Source: Paraspadella gotoi
Lineage: Eukaryota > Animalia > Chaetognatha
DNA: 9,480 nt
Assembly (NCBI GenBank): GCA_051294375.1
Contig: JBJCIZ010001313.1
Span: 1 to 9,480, forward strand
Direction: 5' to 3'
A model generated the notes under the pieces. That model saw only the letters and a program-made list of their open reading frames with translations. It did no database searches and was not told where the DNA came from. Shown here piece after piece: positions 1-9,480 of the stretch (position 1 is the stretch's first letter; each line of letters begins with the position of its first letter). The translations under genes and the position numbers were made by a program.

Positions 1-2007
1 TCGCGGGCATTGTGCCTCTTCTTCGGAGTAAGTGTCTCACCAATGATCAATTCCGCGGCTGGAACTTACCGCCGCGAAACTCGCCGCCCGACTTCGTCCA
101 ATCTTGTCTTGGATCAGGTTTCATGAGGAATATTCGAGGAGTTGTTTTCTGGAACGGATTCGCATAAACGTCATCAAGCAATTCGCGACAGTATAGCGCG
201 TTCCATCCCGTTTTTCAAAACAATCGAATCTCTCGAATTCGTGAAATCTCCGGAGTTAGACGAATGAGATACGTCCGACTTCAGTAACCGGCAGATTATT
301 GCGAGTCGGGGTTTATCTACTGGAAAAGATGAAGAGTGAAGAAGTTCTATCGTGTCCAGAATTTCTTTGGAACCCGGATACACTTGACCGACAAACGTGT
401 TTGATATCACGCGTAAGTCTGAAGATCCCAGAGCGATCTGAGAAAAAAGCGTAGTCGGATGCCCTCACCGCTTCTCCTGCTTTCCTTCACGTTTTTCTGG
501 AGATCGTGGATGCTCGACTACGCCCGTCAATTTTCCGTCTTGGTCAGGCAAAGCGTCAAGAAAAACCGGCCTTTGCTTTGCGCGTGTCTGAAACCTTGCG
601 TTGGAAGGGCCTTCAAACGCAATCGTGCGGGCGAAAAGCATCCCTCGAATCTAACTTAGTCGATATTCAACTCGACGGCGGATCGCCTCATTCGCCTAAT
701 TCCAAATCAATATTTTCGGTTCTGAGAATGGAATTTCTACTGAAAATTCGATCACCGGCTCCTCAACTTCGAAAGAATTGAATATTAAAAATTCGCTACT
801 CTTCGTAAGTTGTCTCCTTTCGTCGACGCGGGGGAGAGATGCGCGTCGGCGGCCGACTTGCATGCGGCGACGCTTCCTTCGAGGCGAAACATCATAATTG
901 CCTACGACGACGATCTAGTTCGCGCCCTTACCGAGATGTACATAGACCCGAGGGTCATGGGGATTGAGCAAACCTGCAGCGAGATTCGGACGCAGTTTGG
1001 ATCCTCCGGGCACGTCAAGCGGATCCGTCGAGTCCTCACAAAATGCGTCTACTGCCAAAAAAGCCTAAGCCACTCGGAACATAAAAAAATGCGCCTCTCA
1101 TCTACAGGACGGCCGCCGGGCCGCCGCATATAGGGAATGTCGGCGTCGATGCGCTCGGGCCCTTCGACATAAAAATGGACAGATGCTCGACATAAGCGGC
1201 TGGGTGGCGCTTTTACCTGTCCACTCTCCGCGCCGTTCATCTCGAGATTATTTTCTCTCTCGACTCTTCCTCATCACTGCTTCGATGCGCGAAGGAAAGA
1301 GGCCGGGCATACGGCATCTCCTTCAGCGATAACCGCAACTAATTTCAAAGGTGCCGACAAAGCTCTGCGCGATGCTTTCAAGGAAGTGGACCGAGCGATC
1401 ATGAATAAAAAATATCCAATCGCTTGCTCGACTGGGACTAGTCGCCGGCTCTCACGCCGCATTAGCGGTGTTTGAGAAAGTTGGTCCGCACGGCAAAGCG
1501 GCATCTTTATGCATACTTGGTGACCGGGCCGCTTTCGATGGAAGACGTTTCGCAACCGTCATCACCGCGCCGGAGGGAATATCAACCGGCGACCTTTAAA
1601 CGCGATAAGCAGCGATGCTAAAAGACCTTCTACCTTGACGCCAGCTGAAACATATCTTATCCGGGGTTCGCGATCGGAACGAAGCGCCGTAGTCTTAACC
1701 ACCGGCTCCGTCTCCGGCGACTTCATTGCGTTTGGAGTACTAAGCACAGCGTGGATTGACTGTCAATTCGAGCGTCGCTTTCCTCCGCGACTATTTGACC
1801 CTAGTTCTCGCAACGCCGCGATACGTGGCAAACGATCGCTTCCGGTCTCAAGGTCGGCCAGCTCGTTCTACCTATGTTGAACGAAACCAAGGCCAGGAGG
1901 CGAGTCGGAGGCTGCGTCATAGAAGCGTGCATGGCGACGAACACCACGCGCGAACGCCGTTCGTGCGGACCGCGAATGGAAAGAATCTTCGAGCGAGATC
2001 GATCTAA
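1..2007 (+). pseudogene. pol: Frameshifted BEL/Pao pol: RNase H region, integrase zinc-binding region, DDE core and BEL-type integrase C-terminal region
   Basis: Motifs read across shifting frames in the expected order: SIPRLELTAAKLAARL (47-94), VVFW/TDS (141-162), NPAD/IASRG-like (286-312), LSPFVD..MRVGGRL (810-859), IRRVLTKCVYC (CxxC at 1044-1055), VGVDALGPF (1139-1165, first catalytic D), RAVHLEI (1229-1249), FSDN/ATNFKGADKALRDAF (1322-1379, second D), GV*E (~1467-1478), INRRPLNAISSDAKDLLP/LTPA (~1580-1646), FLRDYL (~1779-1796), VRTANGK (1963-1983), stop TAA 2005-2007. These match my recollection of the BEL/Pao pol consensus. Many indels and stops. Confidence 0.92.
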
Positions 2008-2132
2008 GATCGTCTCGTTTGAATTAGATGAGTGAAAGTAAAAAAATATTAGTACTCACCTCAAAGATCTGTACTCTTTGTGACTATTTATTCCATTTAT
2101 TGCTTTGCACGACCGAAATATTTGATAGAGGC

Positions 2133-2192
2133 TTTGGCCGAAAGCGAAGATTCGTTTTTTCCCAAATTTGCTTTGATTTCGCTTCGGCCGAA
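2133..2192 (+). other. Long hairpin ~125 nt downstream of the pol stop
   Basis: TTTGGCCGAAAGCGAA (2133-2148) pairs with TTCGCTTCGGCCGAA (2178-2192): 15 bp with one G-U and one bulged A. Confidence 0.6.
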
Positions 2193-2719
2193 TTTTTCCC
2201 CATAGGGACTCCACTAACCAGAAATTCAGATTAAATGTTTTTCAGATTTGAATTTTTGATTTTTATTTTTACTGTTTAAGACAATGTTTTCTCAGATTCT
2301 GTTTTGTTTTGGTTAGTACTATATTTAGAATTTATTTTATTATTTTAAGTGCTTGGAAGTAGGTTTTAAAGAAAAAATATTTTATTTATTTTCGATTTTC
2401 GTAGTGCGATCCCTACTCGAAAATTTTTTTTTTTTCAAGATTTTGACAGGAAAATGAAAATTTTAAATTGTTCGAATTCGTTTAATTATTTATGTACGAA
2501 TTTCACAGTGTACAGAAGTTCAAATTTGGATTTTGGCGACAGTCGTAATCGTTTAATCCATTTTTTTTATTTGTTTATTCGGTTTTTCAGCGTACGTCAA
2601 CACACGGGCCTGTTCTATATTTTTGAAGTCGCGACCTTGTGTATTTTTATGAAAAAAGAAAAAATAATATTTTTTATTGCATTTATGGTTTTAATACGGC
2701 GTTGCGGTTTTGTTGCCTC

Positions 2720-2747
2720 GTCCTTTGTTTTTCTCCTTTTTCTCAAG
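2720..2747 (+). promoter_or_regulatory. Candidate 3' splice acceptor upstream of the accessory ORF
   Basis: Polypyrimidine tract TCCTTTGTTTTTCTCCTTTTTCTC followed by AAG|G at the AT-rich to GC-rich transition. Alternative TTTAG acceptors end at 2753 and 2784. Confidence 0.35.
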
Positions 2748-2802
2748 GTTTAGTACCGATTTGCGTGAAAGAAACTTTATTTAGAATACTCAAAGCTTCG
2801 AT

Positions 2803-4326
2803 ATGCAGGCTTCCACCAGTTCTCAGGTGTCGTCTGGGTGGCACATTCCGGTTCGTCTTTCATGCCGTCCAGCTCAGTGATGGACGCTTCAAGCGACTCG
2901 TGTCGGTCACTCCGCCGACGGGAACTTCAAGCAGAAATCCCGGCGACCTCGACGTGAAAGGACTCGGAAGGTGTTGGGGAAGTTTTGGAGGACAGGGATC
3001 TGTTCTTCTGCCGGCCCCGCCGAAGTAGACAGGTTCTTGAATGCGCTCAGGGTGTCAGGCATGTTCAAGTCCTGTAACTCGATAGAGGTCCCGCTTCGGT
3101 GGGATGGGACGAATTTGCCCATCGACTTGGATCTCTCGTCACAATCGAGAGCCACGTTGGTGACGGATTTTGAATCCATGACCGACTGCGAGCGTGAACC
3201 GCAGGGCTCTAACGGACGCGCCGCCTGCCCGCAAGGGGAGACGACGACGCCGTGAGCCATCCTCTTCTTCTGAGACGGTGCAGACCCCGCGCCTCCCCAG
3301 CGCAAATCAAGGGTGCCCGTCTAGGTCGTGCTGTGGGAGCTCGACCTGCAGAAGATAAAGGTCCGGCATCCCGTACCAGAGCAACGAGGGCGGCGCGGCC
3401 ATCGCCCGTCCTCGGATTACTCGGCCGCGCAGTTATCGTCAACGCGGGGAGCCTGGCGTCCCAAGTTGATCGCCGGTGACCTGCGTGATCGTTTGCACAC
3501 GAGGGCGATATCGCGCGGACCTGAACCAAGTTCCGGCACCTAACAAGTAGCAGTGGCGTCTGCTCCGCATCGTGGCCAGCCGGAGTCAACCCGCTCCTTC
3601 CCAGCGGGCCTCCAGTGCGGCTCAGCCGCCAGCGGTCAATCGACGACGAGGCAGCAGAAGAAGAACGACGGCTTCGTGAGCTCAAGCGCCGGCAGCGGCG
3701 GGGTAAAGTGGCTTCTGCCTCTGCCCCGTCTAGTGCTCCGCTTGTGCCCGAAGTTCGGAGGTCCTCGAAGTAGCAGCTTCAGTTCCGGATCTTGCAGAGG
3801 TGGTGCAAGATTTGCAGGAGGAGCAGCAGGAGGCAGTGTTGGTGCTGCACCCGGAGAAGATATGGATCTGGGAGAAGGCGCAGAGGAAGCATCGGGAGCT
3901 GTAACGGCCCTGGTGGCGCGCCTGAAGAGCTGGCTGGGTCGGCAGCCTTGGAGTGGACGGCGGCATCGCCCCTCCCTCCGGTTCCAACTTCGGATGAGGA
4001 TATGATCCTTTGTCCTACGCCAGAGAGGAAGGAGAGGCGGGAGAGTGAAGGCGGCCCTTCAGAGCACAGCGTCAGCTGGGGCGGGTTTCGAGGCGCTTCC
4101 TTCACAAGAAGTTGTCGCGGAGCCTCGTCGAAGGCAGGAGAGATCCCCCGAGGCGATCAGTGACGTACGTCGGCTCTTCGAGTCAGGTGTCTCGTCGCCG
4201 AAGGGTAAGGCTTCTTCCCGGGGTCGGGCGAAGGGTCGCGGGGCAGGCCGACCGGGAGTCCGGCAGCAGCCAGAGAGAGTAGCGGTGCTATCCAACTGCC
4301 CGCTAGCTCTCTCTTTGTGTAAATAG
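2803..4326 (+). pseudogene. Decayed accessory ORF (~500 codons, several frameshifts) downstream of pol; basic/acidic low-complexity protein, not env-like
   Basis: GC-rich island with protein-like blocks in alternating + frames: FRFVFHAVQLSDGRFKRLVSVT; KVLGKFWRTG..EVDRFLNALRVSGMF..LPIDLDL (ORF 2971-3255); ALTDAPPARKGRRRRREPSSSS (RKGRRRRR at 3230-3253); DLRDRL (3478-3495); SIDDEAAEEERRLRELKRRQRRGK (3636-3707); EVLEVAASVPDLAEVVQDLQEEQQEAVLVLHP (3758-3853); ..SRGRAKGRGAGRPG..CK* (TAG 4324-4326). The start codon and frame path are inferred. Confidence 0.55.
4272..4314 (+). other. 14-bp hairpin overlapping the end of the accessory ORF
   Basis: AGAGAGAG-TAGCGG (4272-4285) pairs with CCGCTA-g-CTCTCTCT (4300-4314). 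Confidence 0.6.
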
Positions 4327-4938
4327 TGGGCAGCCTTGGTGTCCGTGGGGTCCCGGCGGGGAGACCTTTGAGATTTGATTTTCTTTTTTTTTTTAGTTGT
4401 TTGCCGGGACGTTTAGTATACAGCCCTATCCTCCCTTCTGGAGATATGGGGGCTAAAATTTATTACGGCACATCGAATCATTGTTTAATAGGTTTTGGGG
4501 TGTACGGAAGCTCCCTCCCCTGTTAAAACTGCTGAGCTATTTAAATATGGGTAGTTATATGTCACGTGATTTACTTGCTTAACTTGGCACAGTAAGTAAG
4601 TAATATTACGCGCGTTGTGTCGGTCTACGGGTTTTTTCCAGTCAGGCACCCTAAACAATTATTAAATGTGCTTATGGTAAGATAAAGTCGCAAAAAGTAC
4701 CTTTGATTATAAACTACCTAGGCTAGTTTTTAGTCTACATTTTTTCCGCACAAATGTAAATACGTTATATTGTTTATTTCTTATTGTTTTATTTCGTGCC
4801 TTTTATAATTCAGAACACAACGAAGGTTTGACTCGTCGTTCGTCAAAGGTCAGTGGTTCTTCTACTCCTTGGGAATTTCATCTGACGACGTTCGACGAAG
4901 GTTAGTCCATTGTTAGATTATAGACTTTTCTTATTTTC

Positions 4939-5164
4939 TAGTCTGCGTCCGTTCTATACGGCCAGACTATATGTTTCATATTAAATTTTTTCGTCTGCGT
5001 CCGTACTACGGCCAGACAAAATTTTTATATTTTTGTGTTTTTCCGGGTGTCGTCCCGAAGACCTGCGTCCGTAACCGCGGCCAGGTATATATTTTCTTTG
5101 TCCTGCGTCCGTAACCGCGGCCAGGAATTTAACCCCAATCTGCGTCCGTCTCTACGGCCAGATT
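4939..5164 (+). repeat. Array of five structured repeats, consensus CTGCGTCCGT-N(3-5)-RCGGCCAG, each a stem-loop with an asymmetric internal loop
   Basis: Copies at 4939-4969, 4993-5017, 5061-5086, 5101-5126 and 5137-5164. Outer stems TAGTCTG/CAGACTA, GTCTG/CAGAC, ACCTG/CAGGT, TCCTG/CAGGA, AATCTG/CAGATT. Loops TCTAT, ACT, AACC, AACC, CTCT. Spacers 23, 43, 14 and 10 nt. Confidence 0.95.
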
Positions 5165-5573
5165 TTTTATTTTAAAGTTTTTCGAGTAGCGTGGATTTTT
5201 CTTTTCTGTTTTGTCTTAAAATAATTGAAAAAAGAACGTCAACAGTTTTACAGTCGTAGTATTTTTCTTTTCTGTTTTTGTTTTTGTTGGACGGGCGTTT
5301 TTTTTATTTCAGAGCGATGGCCCGGTCCGCCAGTAAAGAGGAAATGGTTGAAATGTCTTGGAAACGCTTTAGAGCGTTGAGTTTTCTTTTTAATTATTTA
5401 GAGTTTTTTATTTTTTAAAATTATAATTTCCGAGCGTTTTTTATAAGGGTTTTAATTTCTTAAAAATAAATAGATATTTGACTTTTATTATTTTATACTT
5501 TTGTATATTAAAGCCTCCTTAGAGCGCGAGCCCGTCTTGCTCTTTTTCGGGAGTTTACTCTAAATAGTTAACA

Positions 5574-5806
5574 GGCCTTCGCGCCTGAAAGGATAGGCCC
5601 TTTTTTTTATTTTTGACGATGGCGCTCAAAGCCTTTCTAAAAGGCTAATTTTCTCTTTTCTGGGAGCTGAAAAGCTCGTCTTCGGATTTAGCTATTTTTC
5701 ATTTTGATCAATAGTTATTTTATTTCGTTTACTTCGCTTTTTCTGCTTTATTCAAATTCAGCTGAAAAGCTGGATTCTCCTGTGGCGGAGTAGGGTTGGG
5801 ACTCCG
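5574..5806 (+). other. Cluster of short hairpins including two AGCT-GAAA-AGCT tetraloop hairpins and a C(UUCG)G loop
   Basis: GAGCT gaaa AGCTC (5664-5677), ATTCAGCT gaaa AGCTGGAT (5756-5775), GTC ttcg GAT (5678-5687), AGCCTTT cta AAAGGCT (5630-5646), CGGAGT..ACTCCG (5786-5806), GGCCT..AGGCC (5574-5599). Confidence 0.6.
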
Positions 5807-6437
5807 AAATACGATTCGTTTCCTGTAAAACGCGGCGAAATTGTTATTTTCTAATCATTTTCTTTTAGTCGCGTTCACCGGCGGATTCCCTATTTTTTCT
5901 GCACTTAGCTAACCTTTTTTATGGGGGTGCCCCGCTTCAATGCCAAAAATTTTTTTTTGATCAATTATTTTTTGTTATCATTGTGTTTGTTTTGTATTTC
6001 TGCACTATGTCGACTTGATCGGCATAGGGGCGCCTTTGGACGGAGTCTCACTTTGTTTCTTTTGCGTTGACGTCCGTCACGCTGAAGGGAGCATTGTCGA
6101 GAGGGTATTACCTTCATGGCTGGCGGGGAGGTCCGTGGGAGGCTTGTCCGTGCGACGGAAAGTCGGCCCGTTCCAGCCTCTCTCGCTAACGCAAGTATTA
6201 ACGTCTTTGACCTTATTTAAATCTTAATATTTTTGCTTTTTTCCCTTTTTAGAGTATTTTTAAATTTTTTATTTCGTTATCGTTGCGTCACTATTCGCGA
6301 TTTTTCGGTGGATAACGCTATATTTCATCATATCCGTTACGCCCCGCATTATTGCGTTATATTGACTCATCGATAATTGGTTTCCCAGCCATCGATTTTT
6401 TCGATGCATCGTCGATGGCTAGCGTAAATTACACCCA

Positions 6438-6891
6438 TTTTTTCCCACGCGTGCGAATCTTTCCCCAAATTTCCCACGTGTGTGAATGCACGCAATATCC
6501 GGTTTCGCCTGCGTGCGACGGCACTTCCGGTTCAAGGTGACGCTCGGATCGTGACGACGATTACGGGTTGAAGCTTTGGATCTCGAAGCGGCGCGTCGAG
6601 CGTAGAGGACTTGGTACGGCGGACATTCCGGGATTGATTGGCTGTTTTTACGGTTTAGTTTTATATTTTTTGGCTTTTTTAACATTATTTTTTTGCTTTA
6701 GTTAAATATTTATTTTTTAGGTTTTTAGTTATTTTGTATGTTTGGTTTTCGACAGGTTAACCTCAACTTTCAATCGATCGTACGGCTTCGATTATCTCCG
6801 AGAAAAGTGTTATTAACCATCATGCCTTTTTTCCCAGGTTTTCGTAACTTTCGCTCGGGGGAAATTTGCGATTTTCCTTCGCTGGGGGAAA
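6438..6891 (+). other. Putative large multibranched cis-acting RNA structure with long-range nested pairing
   Basis: Nested complementary blocks: TTTTTCCCA-c-GCG/CGC-TGGGGGAAA (6439-6451/6880-6891), CAAATTTCCC/GGGAAATTTG (6466-6475/6859-6868), CACTT/AAGTG (6522-6526/6805-6809), CTCGGA/TCCGAG (6543-6548/6797-6802), CGTgACGACGATT/AATCGaTCGTACG (6550-6562/6772-6784), GTTGA/TCAAC (6567-6571/6763-6767), GTCGA/TCGAC (6595-6599/6749-6753). Side hairpin GCACGCA/TGCGTGC (6488-6516). Confidence 0.55.
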
Positions 6892-7032
6892 TTTCTCCCC
6901 AAGCATTACAAATTAACTACGCGTAGTTCTCCCTTTGTATTTTTGGACTTAGCGTTTTTTGCTAAATTTTTTTTTTTTTTCTCGAAAAATTTTTTCTTTT
7001 TGTACGAACAGGTTCGTTCCTCTCCGTTCGTG

Positions 7033-7041
7033 CGGGGGGTA
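7033..7041 (+). promoter_or_regulatory. Candidate polypurine tract (plus-strand primer) of the BEL element
   Basis: CGGGGGGTA, preceded by a hairpin (GTACGAAC 7002-7009 / GTTCGTGC 7026-7033) and followed directly by the candidate LTR start. A G-run plus 2-4 nt before the LTR TG is typical of BEL elements. Confidence 0.45.
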
Positions 7042-7892
7042 CGACCAATTTTTCGATATGAATAATTTAGTATTTATTAGAAAAAATATTTTTAATAATA
7101 CTTTGTTCGTTTTTTAGAAAATGGATATTTTTCGATTTATTAGTATTAAGGTTACTAACCCATTGAATTTCAAAGCTTTCTTTTAGTTTCTTTTCAGATT
7201 CGTTTTCGTAGGAACGTTGAGAAAAAGGTGAAGATTGAGTCAAGGTCAAGGTTCTTGGTTAAGCGAGAGGAGGACAAAACAACCAACGCTCGCCAAAGCG
7301 TGTTCTTCCCGACCAGAACAAGACGGAGAACGAAACCACTCTTCGGAGCGGTGTTGCCAACCACCCACTGCATAGGAACGCCCGATCTGTCCACATTTTT
7401 TGTATTTATTTAGCTTTTGTATTTTTGATAGCTCAAGAGAAGATGGCGACAATTTAGAGTAGGAAGAATAATATAGATTATCTCTCTTTGATCGTTTATA
7501 TTATTCATAATTTGCCCTAACGTTTTTTCAGCTTTTATAAAATTTTTGCTTCGACTTTCGAATGTCTCTAGACGGACGGAGCCTCGCGAGTCGACGCTAA
7601 AATATCACATTATTTAGGCTTTCGGAGTGACGGTCTCCCTTGTTCAGACTGTCTCCCTGCGCGCGCTTAGGCGGCGGCTTTCCTTACGTATAGCCGATTC
7701 CGTTCAGAATTGGTTGGGAAAAGTCGTCGGAACTTCGAATATTTTTTCTAATCGGTTACGATAAGTTGTTTGTTTGACCTTCGCCTCCTCTGGTGCGTCG
7801 AACAACTTTACCGAACACCCTTTATAGTACTACCCTATCGAACGCTTACGACGCGGTTCTCTGATGGCAAGTAAATCGTTTCGTATTCGTCA
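7042..7892 (+). repeat. Candidate 3' LTR (~850 bp)
   Basis: Starts CGACCAAT (TG apparently mutated to CG) and ends ATTCGTCA; the reverse complement of the end, TGACGAAT, matches the start at 6 of 8 positions. TATAAAA at 7536-7542. There is no second LTR in the window to confirm it. Confidence 0.45.
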
Positions 7893-7899
7893 GGATGCT

Positions 7900-8030
7900 G
7901 GAGGCGCTAAATTTCGCCCGCCTCCACTCCCCGCCTCCCGAGACCCCCCTCGCCTCCGGTTTTGCGTTCGCCTCTCATTATTTTAGCCCGGATCGCCTCC
8001 GCGTTCGCCTCTTTAACGCCTCCGGCTTTT
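7900..8030. repeat. Cluster of CGCCTC hexamers (7 forward, 1 inverted)
   Basis: CGCCTC starts at 7919, 7932, 7951, 7969, 7994, 8006 and 8017; GAGGCG at 7901. The higher-order unit TCGCCTCC..GCGTTCGCCTCT occurs twice (7950-7975, 7993-8012). Confidence 0.85.
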
Positions 8031-8134
8031 TGTTAAAAAAATTATTATAGTTTTGTATTTTATATTATTTTTTTAATATCAGAACAATGGGTCATGAAAA
8101 AAAATATATTTTAAACAATTTTTGCAAGACATTT

Positions 8135-8344: not shown

Positions 8345-9480
8345 ATATTATGTTACTTCCAGAATAATTGTTTCCTTTTATATTATTGGCATGAAAAGAC
8401 CAATCAAACTTTAACTACTAAATCTTCTGCCAAAATCATGACTCTGAAACAAATAATTATCAACAACTATGGTCTGGAAATCTATCAGAGTTTTCAAGAA
8501 TTTGAAAAGACAAAGATAAAATTATCTCATTTAAATAATGACATAACCTTTCTAATAAACTGTAGAAATAAGAATGTTATTCCCTTTGGCTTAAGAATCA
8601 AGTCTCCTGTTCATGACCCTTCTCAAAAAATTAACAATATTCTACAAAAATGCAATTTCAAAATACTCCAAGAAAGAATTCAAAATGCAAGAAAACAAAA
8701 ATCTATAAATCTGAAAAAATGGACTAAACTCAACCATGATTTAAAACATATTTTATCTCCAAGTGATTTTTATTTTCTAAACCAAAAATCCAATGAAAAA
8801 AGTAAATCAATTTTTAATAAAGTACAAAAAACTCAAAAGAAAAAACTTGTTAATCTTAACAAAGAAAAAGAAAATGAAGAAAATGAAAGAATAAAAATAA
8901 TAAATGAAGAAAGACAAAAAGTTCTTGGTGAAACAGTAAAAAAGTTAGACAATCTTCCAATGAATGAATCTGAAAAACTAATTCTTGGATATTATGGCCC
9001 TAATTTTAATATTGCTCCCAAACAAATTCCTTGGAAAGAAATCATAGCTAGTGCTCAAGCAATCTCTCATAAACTTTCTCTAGAAGATTCAAAGAATTTC
9101 AGAACACAAATTTGTGATCTCATCTGCAATGCAAAACCTCCAACTCCAAACCTTCCTTATAACCTTCATCAGCAATTAAAATCAATGAAAAAGGATAAAA
9201 CTTTTGTTTATGGCTCTTTTGATAAAGGTAATGGGATGTGGCGTATGACAAGGGAAATGTATGAACAAAAATGTAATGAAGAATTTCATAGTTTGGATTC
9301 TAATGGTAATCCCCGTTATGAAAAACTAGATTTAGATCCAACCCCAAAAATAAAAGGAAAAATAAAATATAGGCTAAATAAATCAAAAGCTGATTCCAAA
9401 CTAAGAAATGAATTGAGTGGTGATCGAGGTATTGCTCCAAGGGTTTATGGCCAAGTAAAAGTTCATAAAGAGAATTATCC
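8345..9480 (+). mobile_element. Penelope-like retroelement (PLE), 5' part; true 5' boundary unknown
   Basis: Contains the PLE ORF below. The reading frame is open from 8345 (after TAA 8342-8344). A-rich, CpG-poor composition distinct from the BEL element. Confidence 0.85.
8438..9480 (+). CDS. Penelope-like element reverse transcriptase polyprotein, N-terminal 347 aa (open at the window end)
   Basis: Uninterrupted frame MTLKQIIINNYG..ITFLINCRNKNVIPFGL..LILGYYGPNFNIAPKQIP..PTPNL..SFDKGNG (DKG at 9221-9229)..YEKLDLDPT..APRVYGQVKVHKENYP. FLxxC....P.GL, G.NF, DKG, Y.....DPT and P..YG..K.HK...P are hallmark PLE motifs upstream of and at RT motif 1. Absent from the ORF track because no stop falls in the window. 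Confidence 0.93.
   Translation, partial: MTLKQIIINNYGLEIYQSFQEFEKTKIKLSHLNNDITFLINCRNKNVIPFGLRIKSPVHDPSQKINNILQKCNFKILQERIQNARKQKSINLKKWTKLNHDLKHILSPSDFYFLNQKSNEKSKSIFNKVQKTQKKKLVNLNKEKENEENERIKIINEERQKVLGETVKKLDNLPMNESEKLILGYYGPNFNIAPKQIPWKEIIASAQAISHKLSLEDSKNFRTQICDLICNAKPPTPNLPYNLHQQLKSMKKDKTFVYGSFDKGNGMWRMTREMYEQKCNEEFHSLDSNGNPRYEKLDLDPTPKIKGKIKYRLNKSKADSKLRNELSGDRGIAPRVYGQVKVHKENY

What the first reader, a model, noticed from the sequence alone, without database searches (positions are those of the whole stretch)
2803..6891. Possible Rev/RRE-like module: arginine-rich accessory protein plus downstream structured RNA elements in a BEL/Pao element
Seen: the slot between pol and the PPT holds a non-env ORF behind a splice-acceptor-like tract, carrying RKGRRRRR, LRELKRRQRRGK and an RG-rich tail. 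It is followed by ~2.6 kb of noncoding sequence with a repeated hairpin and large paired domains. Established: complex retroviruses pair an Arg-rich protein from spliced mRNA with a structured element (HIV Rev/RRE and Tat/TAR, HERV-K Rec/RcRE). Simple ones use cis elements alone (MPMV CTE, IAP RTE, MusD MTE). C. elegans Cer1 (Ty3/gypsy) encodes the export factor CERV. Inference: this BEL lineage may encode its own protein-RNA system for handling unspliced genomic RNA, which I do not know to be described for Belpaoviridae. The link between protein and hairpins is hypothetical.
Basis: inference. Interest (0 to 1): 0.8.

Follow-up and report, generated by a model that had tools for sequence, protein, structure and literature searches.

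The report
Extra retrotransposon gene beside RNA hairpins
An animal BEL/Pao-type jumping gene carries, where an envelope gene would sit, an unrelated gene of about 520 codons with basic patches, followed by five copies of a predicted bulged RNA hairpin; the protein likely binds these hairpins to steer the element's own RNA, much as HIV Rev does, but binding, splicing and export are all untested.

Summary
The parts are real; the link between them is unproven. The window holds the 3' half of a young, multi-copy BEL/Pao-like element. Its extra ORF is broken here by small indels. Contig lengths from five public runs put ATG 2803, both basic patches, the RG tail and stop 4324 in one register (about 521 codons): 0 stops in 216 in-register codons, and diverged lineages keep the frame. 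It has no transmembrane helix, so it is not env, and no homologue was found. Five bulged hairpins (4939-5164) are strong: z -4.7, invariant core, compensatory outer pairs, a plus-strand G-U pair. Of 6438-6891 only the inner rod (6482-6629) is robust. Closest precedent: Cer1 CERV (Ty3/gypsy; same slot, export factor). Best reading (0.4): the protein binds the hairpin array and controls genomic RNA fate. My searches found no such pair described for Belpaoviridae, and no earlier scan note on this system.

The parts
1..2035 (+). 3' end of a BEL/Pao-like pol (RNase H tail, then integrase), broken by many small indels
   Evidence: Pfam Peptidase_A17 E 0.075-0.11 and Integrase_H2C2 E 0.0022, both below curated cut-offs; BEL-type motifs recognised from recall
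2036..2802 (+). AT-rich spacer (30% GC) with a pyrimidine tract and AG at 2721-2747 and a second AG at 2783-2784: candidate cis- or trans-splice acceptors
   Evidence: sequence, composition; not enriched over shuffles; no junction seen
2803..4326 (+). extra ORF in the env slot, about 521 codons in close-family copies, frameshifted in this copy; mostly low-complexity, no transmembrane helix, no homologue found
   Evidence: register; hydropathy; no credible hits
3230..3253 (+). basic patch 1 (RKGRRRRR), at the start of a block (3218-3373) that diverged lineages still share
   Evidence: tables 5, 7, 8: diverged contigs begin to align at 3218-3228; 7 of 10 listed variable sites in 3253-3288 at third codon positions
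3672..3707 (+). basic patch 2 (LRELKRRQRRGK), in register; not within an alignable block of the more diverged lineages
   Evidence: joints 3366->3784 and 3366->3806
3784..3856 (+). acidic and hydrophobic, likely helical segment shared with diverged lineages; candidate export signal or activation domain
   Evidence: joints; composition of 3759-3850 (7 D/E, 12 hydrophobic, 0 basic of 30); frame shown to 3790, inferred beyond
4201..4257 (+). RG-rich tail, in the frame that ends at TAG 4324-4326
   Evidence: a diverged contig end over 4159-4188 differs at 6 sites, 4 at third positions, 3 synonymous (table 7, compared by eye)
4939..5164 (+). array of five bulged hairpins: invariant core with two single-base bulges around a G-C pair; variable loop and covarying outer stem
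   Evidence: some other copies skip units 2-3 (joint 4967->5097)
6482..6629 (+). long irregular RNA rod, rich in G-U pairs, plus-strand specific
   Evidence: -62.0 vs -35.4 kcal/mol and z -2.33 vs +0.95 for 6481-6627 on the two strands; 13-14 G-U pairs, stable to context
6881..6891 (+). likely polypurine tract; a similar tract lies at about 6852-6863
   Evidence: sequence; position inferred from the LTR ends
6892..8086 (+). likely 3' LTR (about 1.2 kb), TATAAA at 7536, strong hairpin near 6960-7070
   Evidence: ends AGAACA, an imperfect inverted match to the start; TATAAA; z -3.6; the 5' LTR is outside the window

Best explanation
[quoted passage not shown] Shown: one reading frame across copies, frame kept in diverged lineages, the hairpin array and its covariation, no membrane anchor. 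Inferred: translation from a cis- or trans-spliced subgenomic RNA; nuclear location; binding of patch 1 to the invariant bulged core, several molecules per RNA; use of the acidic-hydrophobic segment or another motif to recruit a host export factor. The rod near the PPT is probably a separate cis signal for packaging or reverse transcription.
For: One register from ATG to stop, 0 stops in 216 codons. 4 of 4 informative diverged pieces differ from close-family contigs by 0 or 3 letters (worked by hand; they may come from only two lineages). 13 of 25 listed variable sites are at third positions, p 0.04. Diverged contigs start to align at patch 1. The hairpins keep a bulged core while loop and outer stem vary, the usual look of a protein-binding site; the U-G pair in units 3-4 works only on the plus strand. 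No Rfam match (one weak row elsewhere, E 0.083), so the site is element-specific. ORF depth follows pol and the array bin is of the same order (a weak hint). [quoted passage not shown] Donor-like sites at 4849 and 4901 and an acceptor-like site at 5312 flank the array, which would confine it to unspliced RNA if used.
Against: No binding, splicing, localisation or export data. Arg share equals the base-composition expectation. Of the two patches that pass a 7-in-10 basic threshold in the plus frames, one (about 2935-2970) is probably out of register (register at 2931), so GC-rich DNA yields such patches by itself. Patch 2 is not alignable in more diverged lineages. Basic patches are equally typical of nuclear localisation signals. 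Only one common-pattern NES-like match in 323 residues. Splice motifs are not enriched. Array and rod lie 3' of the ORF, so they would be on the subgenomic RNA too unless spliced out. Long pol-to-LTR regions with extra ORFs and family-specific tandem arrays occur in plant Retand elements with no known link (PMC11963269). One search lists only about half of the substitutions of the diverged records, so conservation inside patch 1 is not fully visible.
Confidence: 0.4

Rival explanations
1. The ORF encodes a nuclear accessory factor acting on DNA or chromatin (transactivator or anti-silencing protein: basic localisation/DNA-binding patches plus an acidic activation segment). The hairpins and rod are independent cis signals read by host proteins (CTE-like export, RNA localisation) or by Gag.
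For: The conserved blocks are a basic patch, an acidic-hydrophobic segment and a basic tail in a disordered chain. MPMV CTE sits at the 3' end, is on all viral RNAs and binds host NXF1 with no viral partner (PMC12789967). Plant extra ORFs in this slot are nuclear or predicted DNA binders (PMC11963269, PMC7264820). If the host is a chaetognath (unreviewed note e1-10588039, not tested), LTR elements are methylation targets there (PMC12460157), favouring anti-silencing. The rod is shared more widely than the ORF.
Against: The element-specific five-fold repeat of a bulged core next to an element-specific basic protein is then a coincidence; no DNA-binding fold was detected.
Confidence: 0.35
2. The protein is a general nucleic-acid chaperone or condensate scaffold (RG-rich, disordered) that helps package or protect genomic RNA without sequence specificity; the hairpins serve packaging or dimerisation.
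For: 68% of 323 sampled residues are S, P, A, G, E, R, Q or K; foamy-virus Gag uses Gly-Arg boxes for encapsidation (PMC12789967).
Against: One X3 contig joins 2345 to 4377 and so lacks the ORF, and the most widely shared noncoding blocks do not include the array: packaging signals should be the parts that derivatives keep.
Confidence: 0.15
3. The ORF is a captured or drifting GC-rich segment and the hairpins are a neutral tandem expansion of a palindrome.
For: No homologue; Arg share as expected by chance; large parts of the ORF do not align between lineages at 80%; unit number varies.
Against: Open frame over about 521 codons, frame kept in diverged lineages, third-position bias; compensatory pairs in the hairpins; ORF about as frequent as pol.
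Confidence: 0.1

Closest known systems
Cer1 CERV of C. elegans (Ty3/gypsy; Sun et al. 2023, PMC10309623; abstract, sections 4, 6, 9 and passages read)
   Same: [quoted passage not shown]
   Different: CERV is made from a 5-exon mRNA sharing exons with gag, has three folded domains and a Cys loop, and the parts read name no RNA response element. The present ORF is in a BEL/Pao-like element, looks mostly disordered, has 4 Cys in 323 sampled residues and is followed by a hairpin array; no sequence link was found.
HIV Rev/RRE, HTLV Rex, MMTV Rem/RmRE (PMC12789967, passages read; HERV-K Rec/RcRE recalled)
   Same: Element-encoded basic patches plus a structured RNA near the 3' end; RmRE is likewise at the 3' end and on both spliced and unspliced RNA.
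   Different: No homology; much longer protein than Rev (size recalled); five separate identical hairpins rather than one branched element; NES, splicing, binding and CRM1 use not shown.
MPMV CTE and other cis-only export elements (PMC12789967, passages read; IAP RTE and MusD MTE recalled)
   Same: Structured RNA between the coding region and the 3' LTR.
   Different: No Rfam match; here an extra basic ORF lies beside it.
Plant Retand/Grande elements (PMC11963269, PMC7264820; passages read)
   Same: Long pol-to-3'LTR region (here about 4.9 kb) with an extra ORF and a family-specific tandem array of variable copy number.
   Different: Those are plant Ty3/gypsy elements with mostly antisense ORFs (TRP28); here the ORF is sense and the repeat is a covarying hairpin.
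Belpaoviridae with env-like genes (ICTV profile PMC8742986, whole text; Atlas virus PMC9094657, passages)
   Same: BEL/Pao-type pol, short PPT, third gene in the slot before the 3' LTR.
   Different: The third gene described there is env-like; this one has no membrane-spanning stretch. It is also unlike the small transmembrane sORF2 proteins of MDG1-group elements (10.1101/2025.03.14.642691, passages).

Membership tests
Belpaoviridae (BEL/Pao) | Pol order RT-RNase H-integrase with BEL-type domains | tested here: inconclusive
   Peptidase_A17 (Pao) E 0.075-0.11 at the window start, then Integrase_H2C2 E 0.0022; both under Pfam cut-offs because of frameshifts; BEL motifs recognised from recall
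Belpaoviridae (BEL/Pao) | RT phylogeny, gag, PBS and paired LTRs | not testable with these tools
   These lie upstream of the window; no genome is held
Belpaoviridae (BEL/Pao) | PPT of about 10 nt before an LTR of 0.2-1.2 kb | tested here: met
   Purine tract 6881-6891 and a 1195-nt segment with imperfect inverted ends; sizes as in PMC8742986; boundaries inferred from one copy
env / envelope-like gene | Transmembrane anchor and signal peptide | tested here: not met
   Highest 19-residue KD mean 0.77, 0.88, 1.33 in the three frames; 0 windows above 1.6
Rev/RRE-type export pair | Element-encoded arginine-rich motif in frame | tested here: met
   Both patches in register; overall Arg not enriched
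Rev/RRE-type export pair | Leucine-rich nuclear export signal | tested here: inconclusive
   One match to a loose pattern in 323 of about 521 residues; such matches are common in amphipathic helices
Rev/RRE-type export pair | Protein made from a spliced mRNA | tested here: inconclusive
   Acceptor-like tract present; none of the 15 joints shown (of 30) has GT..AG ends; the only RNA-guess run looks like DNA (Spearman 0.89 with two DNA runs)
Rev/RRE-type export pair | Structured cis element in the element's RNA | tested here: met
   Predicted only:
Rev/RRE-type export pair | Direct specific binding and export dependence | not testable with these tools
   needs bench work
CERV-like proteins | Env-slot ORF without outside homologues | tested here: met
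   PMC10309623 section 4
CERV-like proteins | Folded H, M (Cys loop) and G domains; gag-shared exons | tested here: inconclusive
   No Cys cluster in the 323 residues sampled; single-sequence model of 3004-3210 has pLDDT 52; upstream exons outside the window

The most novel reading that the evidence does not exclude
A BEL/Pao retrotransposon lineage has independently evolved a Rev/RRE-like system: an element-encoded basic protein, made from a spliced (possibly leader trans-spliced) RNA, loads onto a five-site hairpin array confined to the unspliced genome and licenses its nuclear export. This would be the first such pair in Belpaoviridae and the first LTR-retrotransposon export factor with a named RNA target.
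Probability: 0.27. Interest if true: 0.82.

Novelty: new variant of a known kind. Interest (0 to 1): 0.57.

Why it matters
How BEL/Pao elements export unspliced RNA is not described; the ICTV profile calls their replication poorly understood and lists only gag, pol and env. A conserved non-env gene beside a short, five-fold repeated hairpin gives a concrete, cheaply testable protein-RNA pair. If it holds, retrovirus-style post-transcriptional control arose a third time (retroviruses, Cer1, BEL/Pao). If it fails, the element still adds an undescribed accessory gene and a clean new RNA motif.

Tried and rejected
No host genome is held. Protein searches found nothing credible: 0 of 290 candidates for 2803-3252 among longer proteins; 2 hits among 1.84 billion representatives, both repeat proteins matching a few residues; Atlas best scores 0.89 and 0.90 with recognition below threshold. 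The queries were only partly in register (roughly 70 residues), which lowers their power. The integrase piece also found 0 of 238, so these databases cover this lineage poorly. The hairpin pattern gave 34 single matches in viral contigs and 8 GC-rich loci in metagenomes; 0 of 42 loci match the window by blastn or tblastx; all dropped as chance. Rfam: 1 weak row, E 0.083, outside the finding. No RNA holder listed: 9 of 11 rows hold the stretch, none on record as RNA; this says nothing about expression. The AlphaFold model of 3004-3210 (pLDDT 52) was too poor to search with. A 20-letter unaligned end of one X9 contig at 2749 was considered as a splice junction and rejected: it starts one base past the predicted exon start and the run looks like DNA. 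Tetraloop count: 2 in the 3' noncoding part vs 0.29 shuffled (p 0.04), but pol also has 2; not used. The first pair count had a mis-set structure and was redone. Nested-insertion reading rejected: ORF depth equals pol depth, and the 2345->4377 joint is one contig at depth 126 against about 10,000 over the ORF. Literature searches for a BEL/Pao export protein or hairpin array found none; subscription papers and Repbase are not covered, and no supplements were read. I recall that Bowen and McDonald 1999 reported retrovirus-like extra coding features in BEL-type Cer elements; the paper was not held, so this possible precedent is unchecked.
Full report
Setting. Bases 1-2035 are the frameshifted 3' end of a pol gene: Pfam Peptidase_A17 (Pao) at the very start (E 0.11 and 0.075) and Integrase_H2C2 (E 0.0022), both below cut-off, with BEL-type motifs that I recognise from recall. 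A purine tract at 6881-6891 is followed by a 1195-nt segment whose ends form an imperfect inverted pair, the likely 3' LTR. A GA microsatellite and an unrelated Penelope-like ORF follow. No host genome is held, so other copies were seen only through assembled contigs of public runs (5 of 11 listed runs laid).

The copy and its family. All 30 bins are covered in 4 of 4 runs. The window copy differs from its closest contigs mainly by small gaps: 14 substitutions and 36 gap letters over 2803-3616, 2 and 7 over 3762-4321. Pieces on the Penelope-like ORF show 0-1 substitutions and 0 gaps over 237-950 nt (5 of 6 pieces listed there; one short piece has unaligned ends). So the family is young, and the frameshifts are either assembly errors in a high-copy repeat or deletion-prone decay; I cannot tell which.

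Is the ORF real, and are the patches in frame? In the window the three basic features lie in three frames. Piece lengths give a net difference of +42 from ATG 2803 to TAG 4324-4326, about 521 codons. One search lists 12 indel rows for 3100-3790 (8 more not shown); the listed ones account for the net length and gap count of the close-family contigs there. They place RKGRRRRR (3230-3253) and LRELKRRQRRGK (3672-3707) in the register of the start codon. The 11 segments between breaks, each read alone, hold 0 stops in 216 codons against 15 in the other two frames. Diverged lineages (80-90% alike) keep the frame: 4 of 4 informative pieces differ from the close family by 0 or 3 letters, one despite 12 gap letters (by hand; perhaps only two lineages). 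One low-depth record joins 3715 to 4157 out of frame, a defective deletion. 13 of 25 listed variable sites fall on third positions (p 0.04), 7 of 10 in 3253-3288 (p 0.02); one search prints only about half of these records' substitutions. Breaks in 2803-3100 and 3790-4321 are known only as net lengths. Whether ATG 2803 is the true start or an internal exon is open.

What kind of protein? No membrane-spanning stretch in any frame, so not env or a FAST-like fusogen. Of 323 sampled in-register or likely in-register residues, 68% are disorder-promoting, Arg is 12.7% and Lys 4.0%; base composition alone predicts 13.2% and 2.0%. The protein is therefore patchy-basic, not globally Arg-rich. Blocks shared with diverged lineages are 3218-3373 (starting at patch 1), 3784-3856 (acidic and hydrophobic) and the tail from about 4080-4194. 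Patch 2 is skipped by joints 3366->3784 and 3366->3806, which counts against its importance. No homologue or usable fold was found, with the limits given under Tried and rejected.

The RNA elements. Five hairpins at 4939-5164 share a 17-base invariant core that folds into a stem with two single-base bulges around a G-C pair. z is -4.70; the outer stem shows three pair types at one position and two at the next; sliding the partners drops pairing from 94.5% to 22-42%; pair probabilities stay 0.78-0.99 in context. No sixth copy lies in the window. Some copies lack units 2-3. The 6438-6891 domain is weaker: z -2.76, with a robust plus-strand inner rod and a context-dependent outer arm. Other 120-nt windows with z below -3 lie at 3141-3380, 5661-5780, 6261-6500 and 6981-7100 (9 of 100 windows on the plus strand, 20 shuffles each). 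Rfam has no match.

Do protein and RNA belong together? Summed depth is no copy number, so this is a hint only: ORF/pol is 0.90-1.22 in 4 of 4 runs, the array bin 0.31-1.69, the rod 1.2-8.5, and 4425-4740 2.5-28. The rod and LTR are thus shared with more relatives or derivatives than ORF and array are. One contig joins 2345 to 4377 without the ORF. Donor-like and acceptor-like motifs flank the array, but such motifs are not significantly enriched, and no junction was seen; run X9, guessed to be RNA, tracks the DNA runs.

Mechanism. I put 0.4 on the protein binding the array and steering full-length RNA (0.27 on the full Rev/RRE-like export version), 0.35 on a DNA- or chromatin-level accessory factor with host- or Gag-read RNA signals, 0.15 on a non-specific chaperone, and 0.1 on no function. 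If the host is a chaetognath, leader trans-splicing (about half of genes in Paraspadella, PMC12460157) offers a second way to express the ORF from the acceptor-like tract.

Comparison. It would work like Cer1 CERV (PMC10309623: same slot, 517 aa, export factor) or Rem/RmRE (PMC12789967), but is a member of neither: no homology, and the defining functional features are untested. The layout also recalls plant Retand elements. The ICTV profile (whole text) lists only gag, pol and env for Belpaoviridae; passages of PMC3118150, PMC12451622 and PMC9094657 mention no other accessory gene. Eight searches found no BEL/Pao export pair; one recalled paper could not be read. Scan look-ups by sequence and by words found nothing, and 16 listed same-genome rows concerned other systems.

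Verdict. A real, conserved, apparently undescribed non-env gene and a convincing repeated RNA motif in a BEL/Pao-like element; the Rev/RRE-like link is plausible and untested. New variant of a known kind; interest 0.57.

Noticed in passing
window 8345-9480: Intact AT-rich ORF running off the window end; its one database relative (26% identity, E 6e-6) has RT and GIY-YIG domains: a Penelope-like element beside the LTR.
   Followed up: partly
window 4425-4740: Noncoding block with the highest summed depth in 3 of 4 runs (2.5-28x pol), above the LTR; no strong fold, but it holds three donor-like GTAAG motifs (4592, 4596, 4677). May be shared by many derivatives or lineages.
   Followed up: no
window 5664-5677 and 5759-5772: Two AGCT-GAAA-AGCT hairpins with GNRA loops and a swapped closing pair (G-C and C-G).
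   Followed up: no
window 5313-5418: Acceptor-like site at 5312 directly followed by a 33-codon ATG frame; possibly a small extra exon.
   Followed up: no
window 3141-3380: Two windows inside the ORF fold better than shuffles (z -3.4 and -4.9) and overlap the block shared with diverged lineages, so part of that conservation could be at RNA level.
   Followed up: no
window 6960-7070: Long hairpin at the start of the likely LTR (z -3.6 to -5.2), a position like that of U3-located response elements.
   Followed up: no
window 2345 and 4377: One X3 contig joins these two places and so lacks the whole extra ORF while keeping both flanks.
   Followed up: partly
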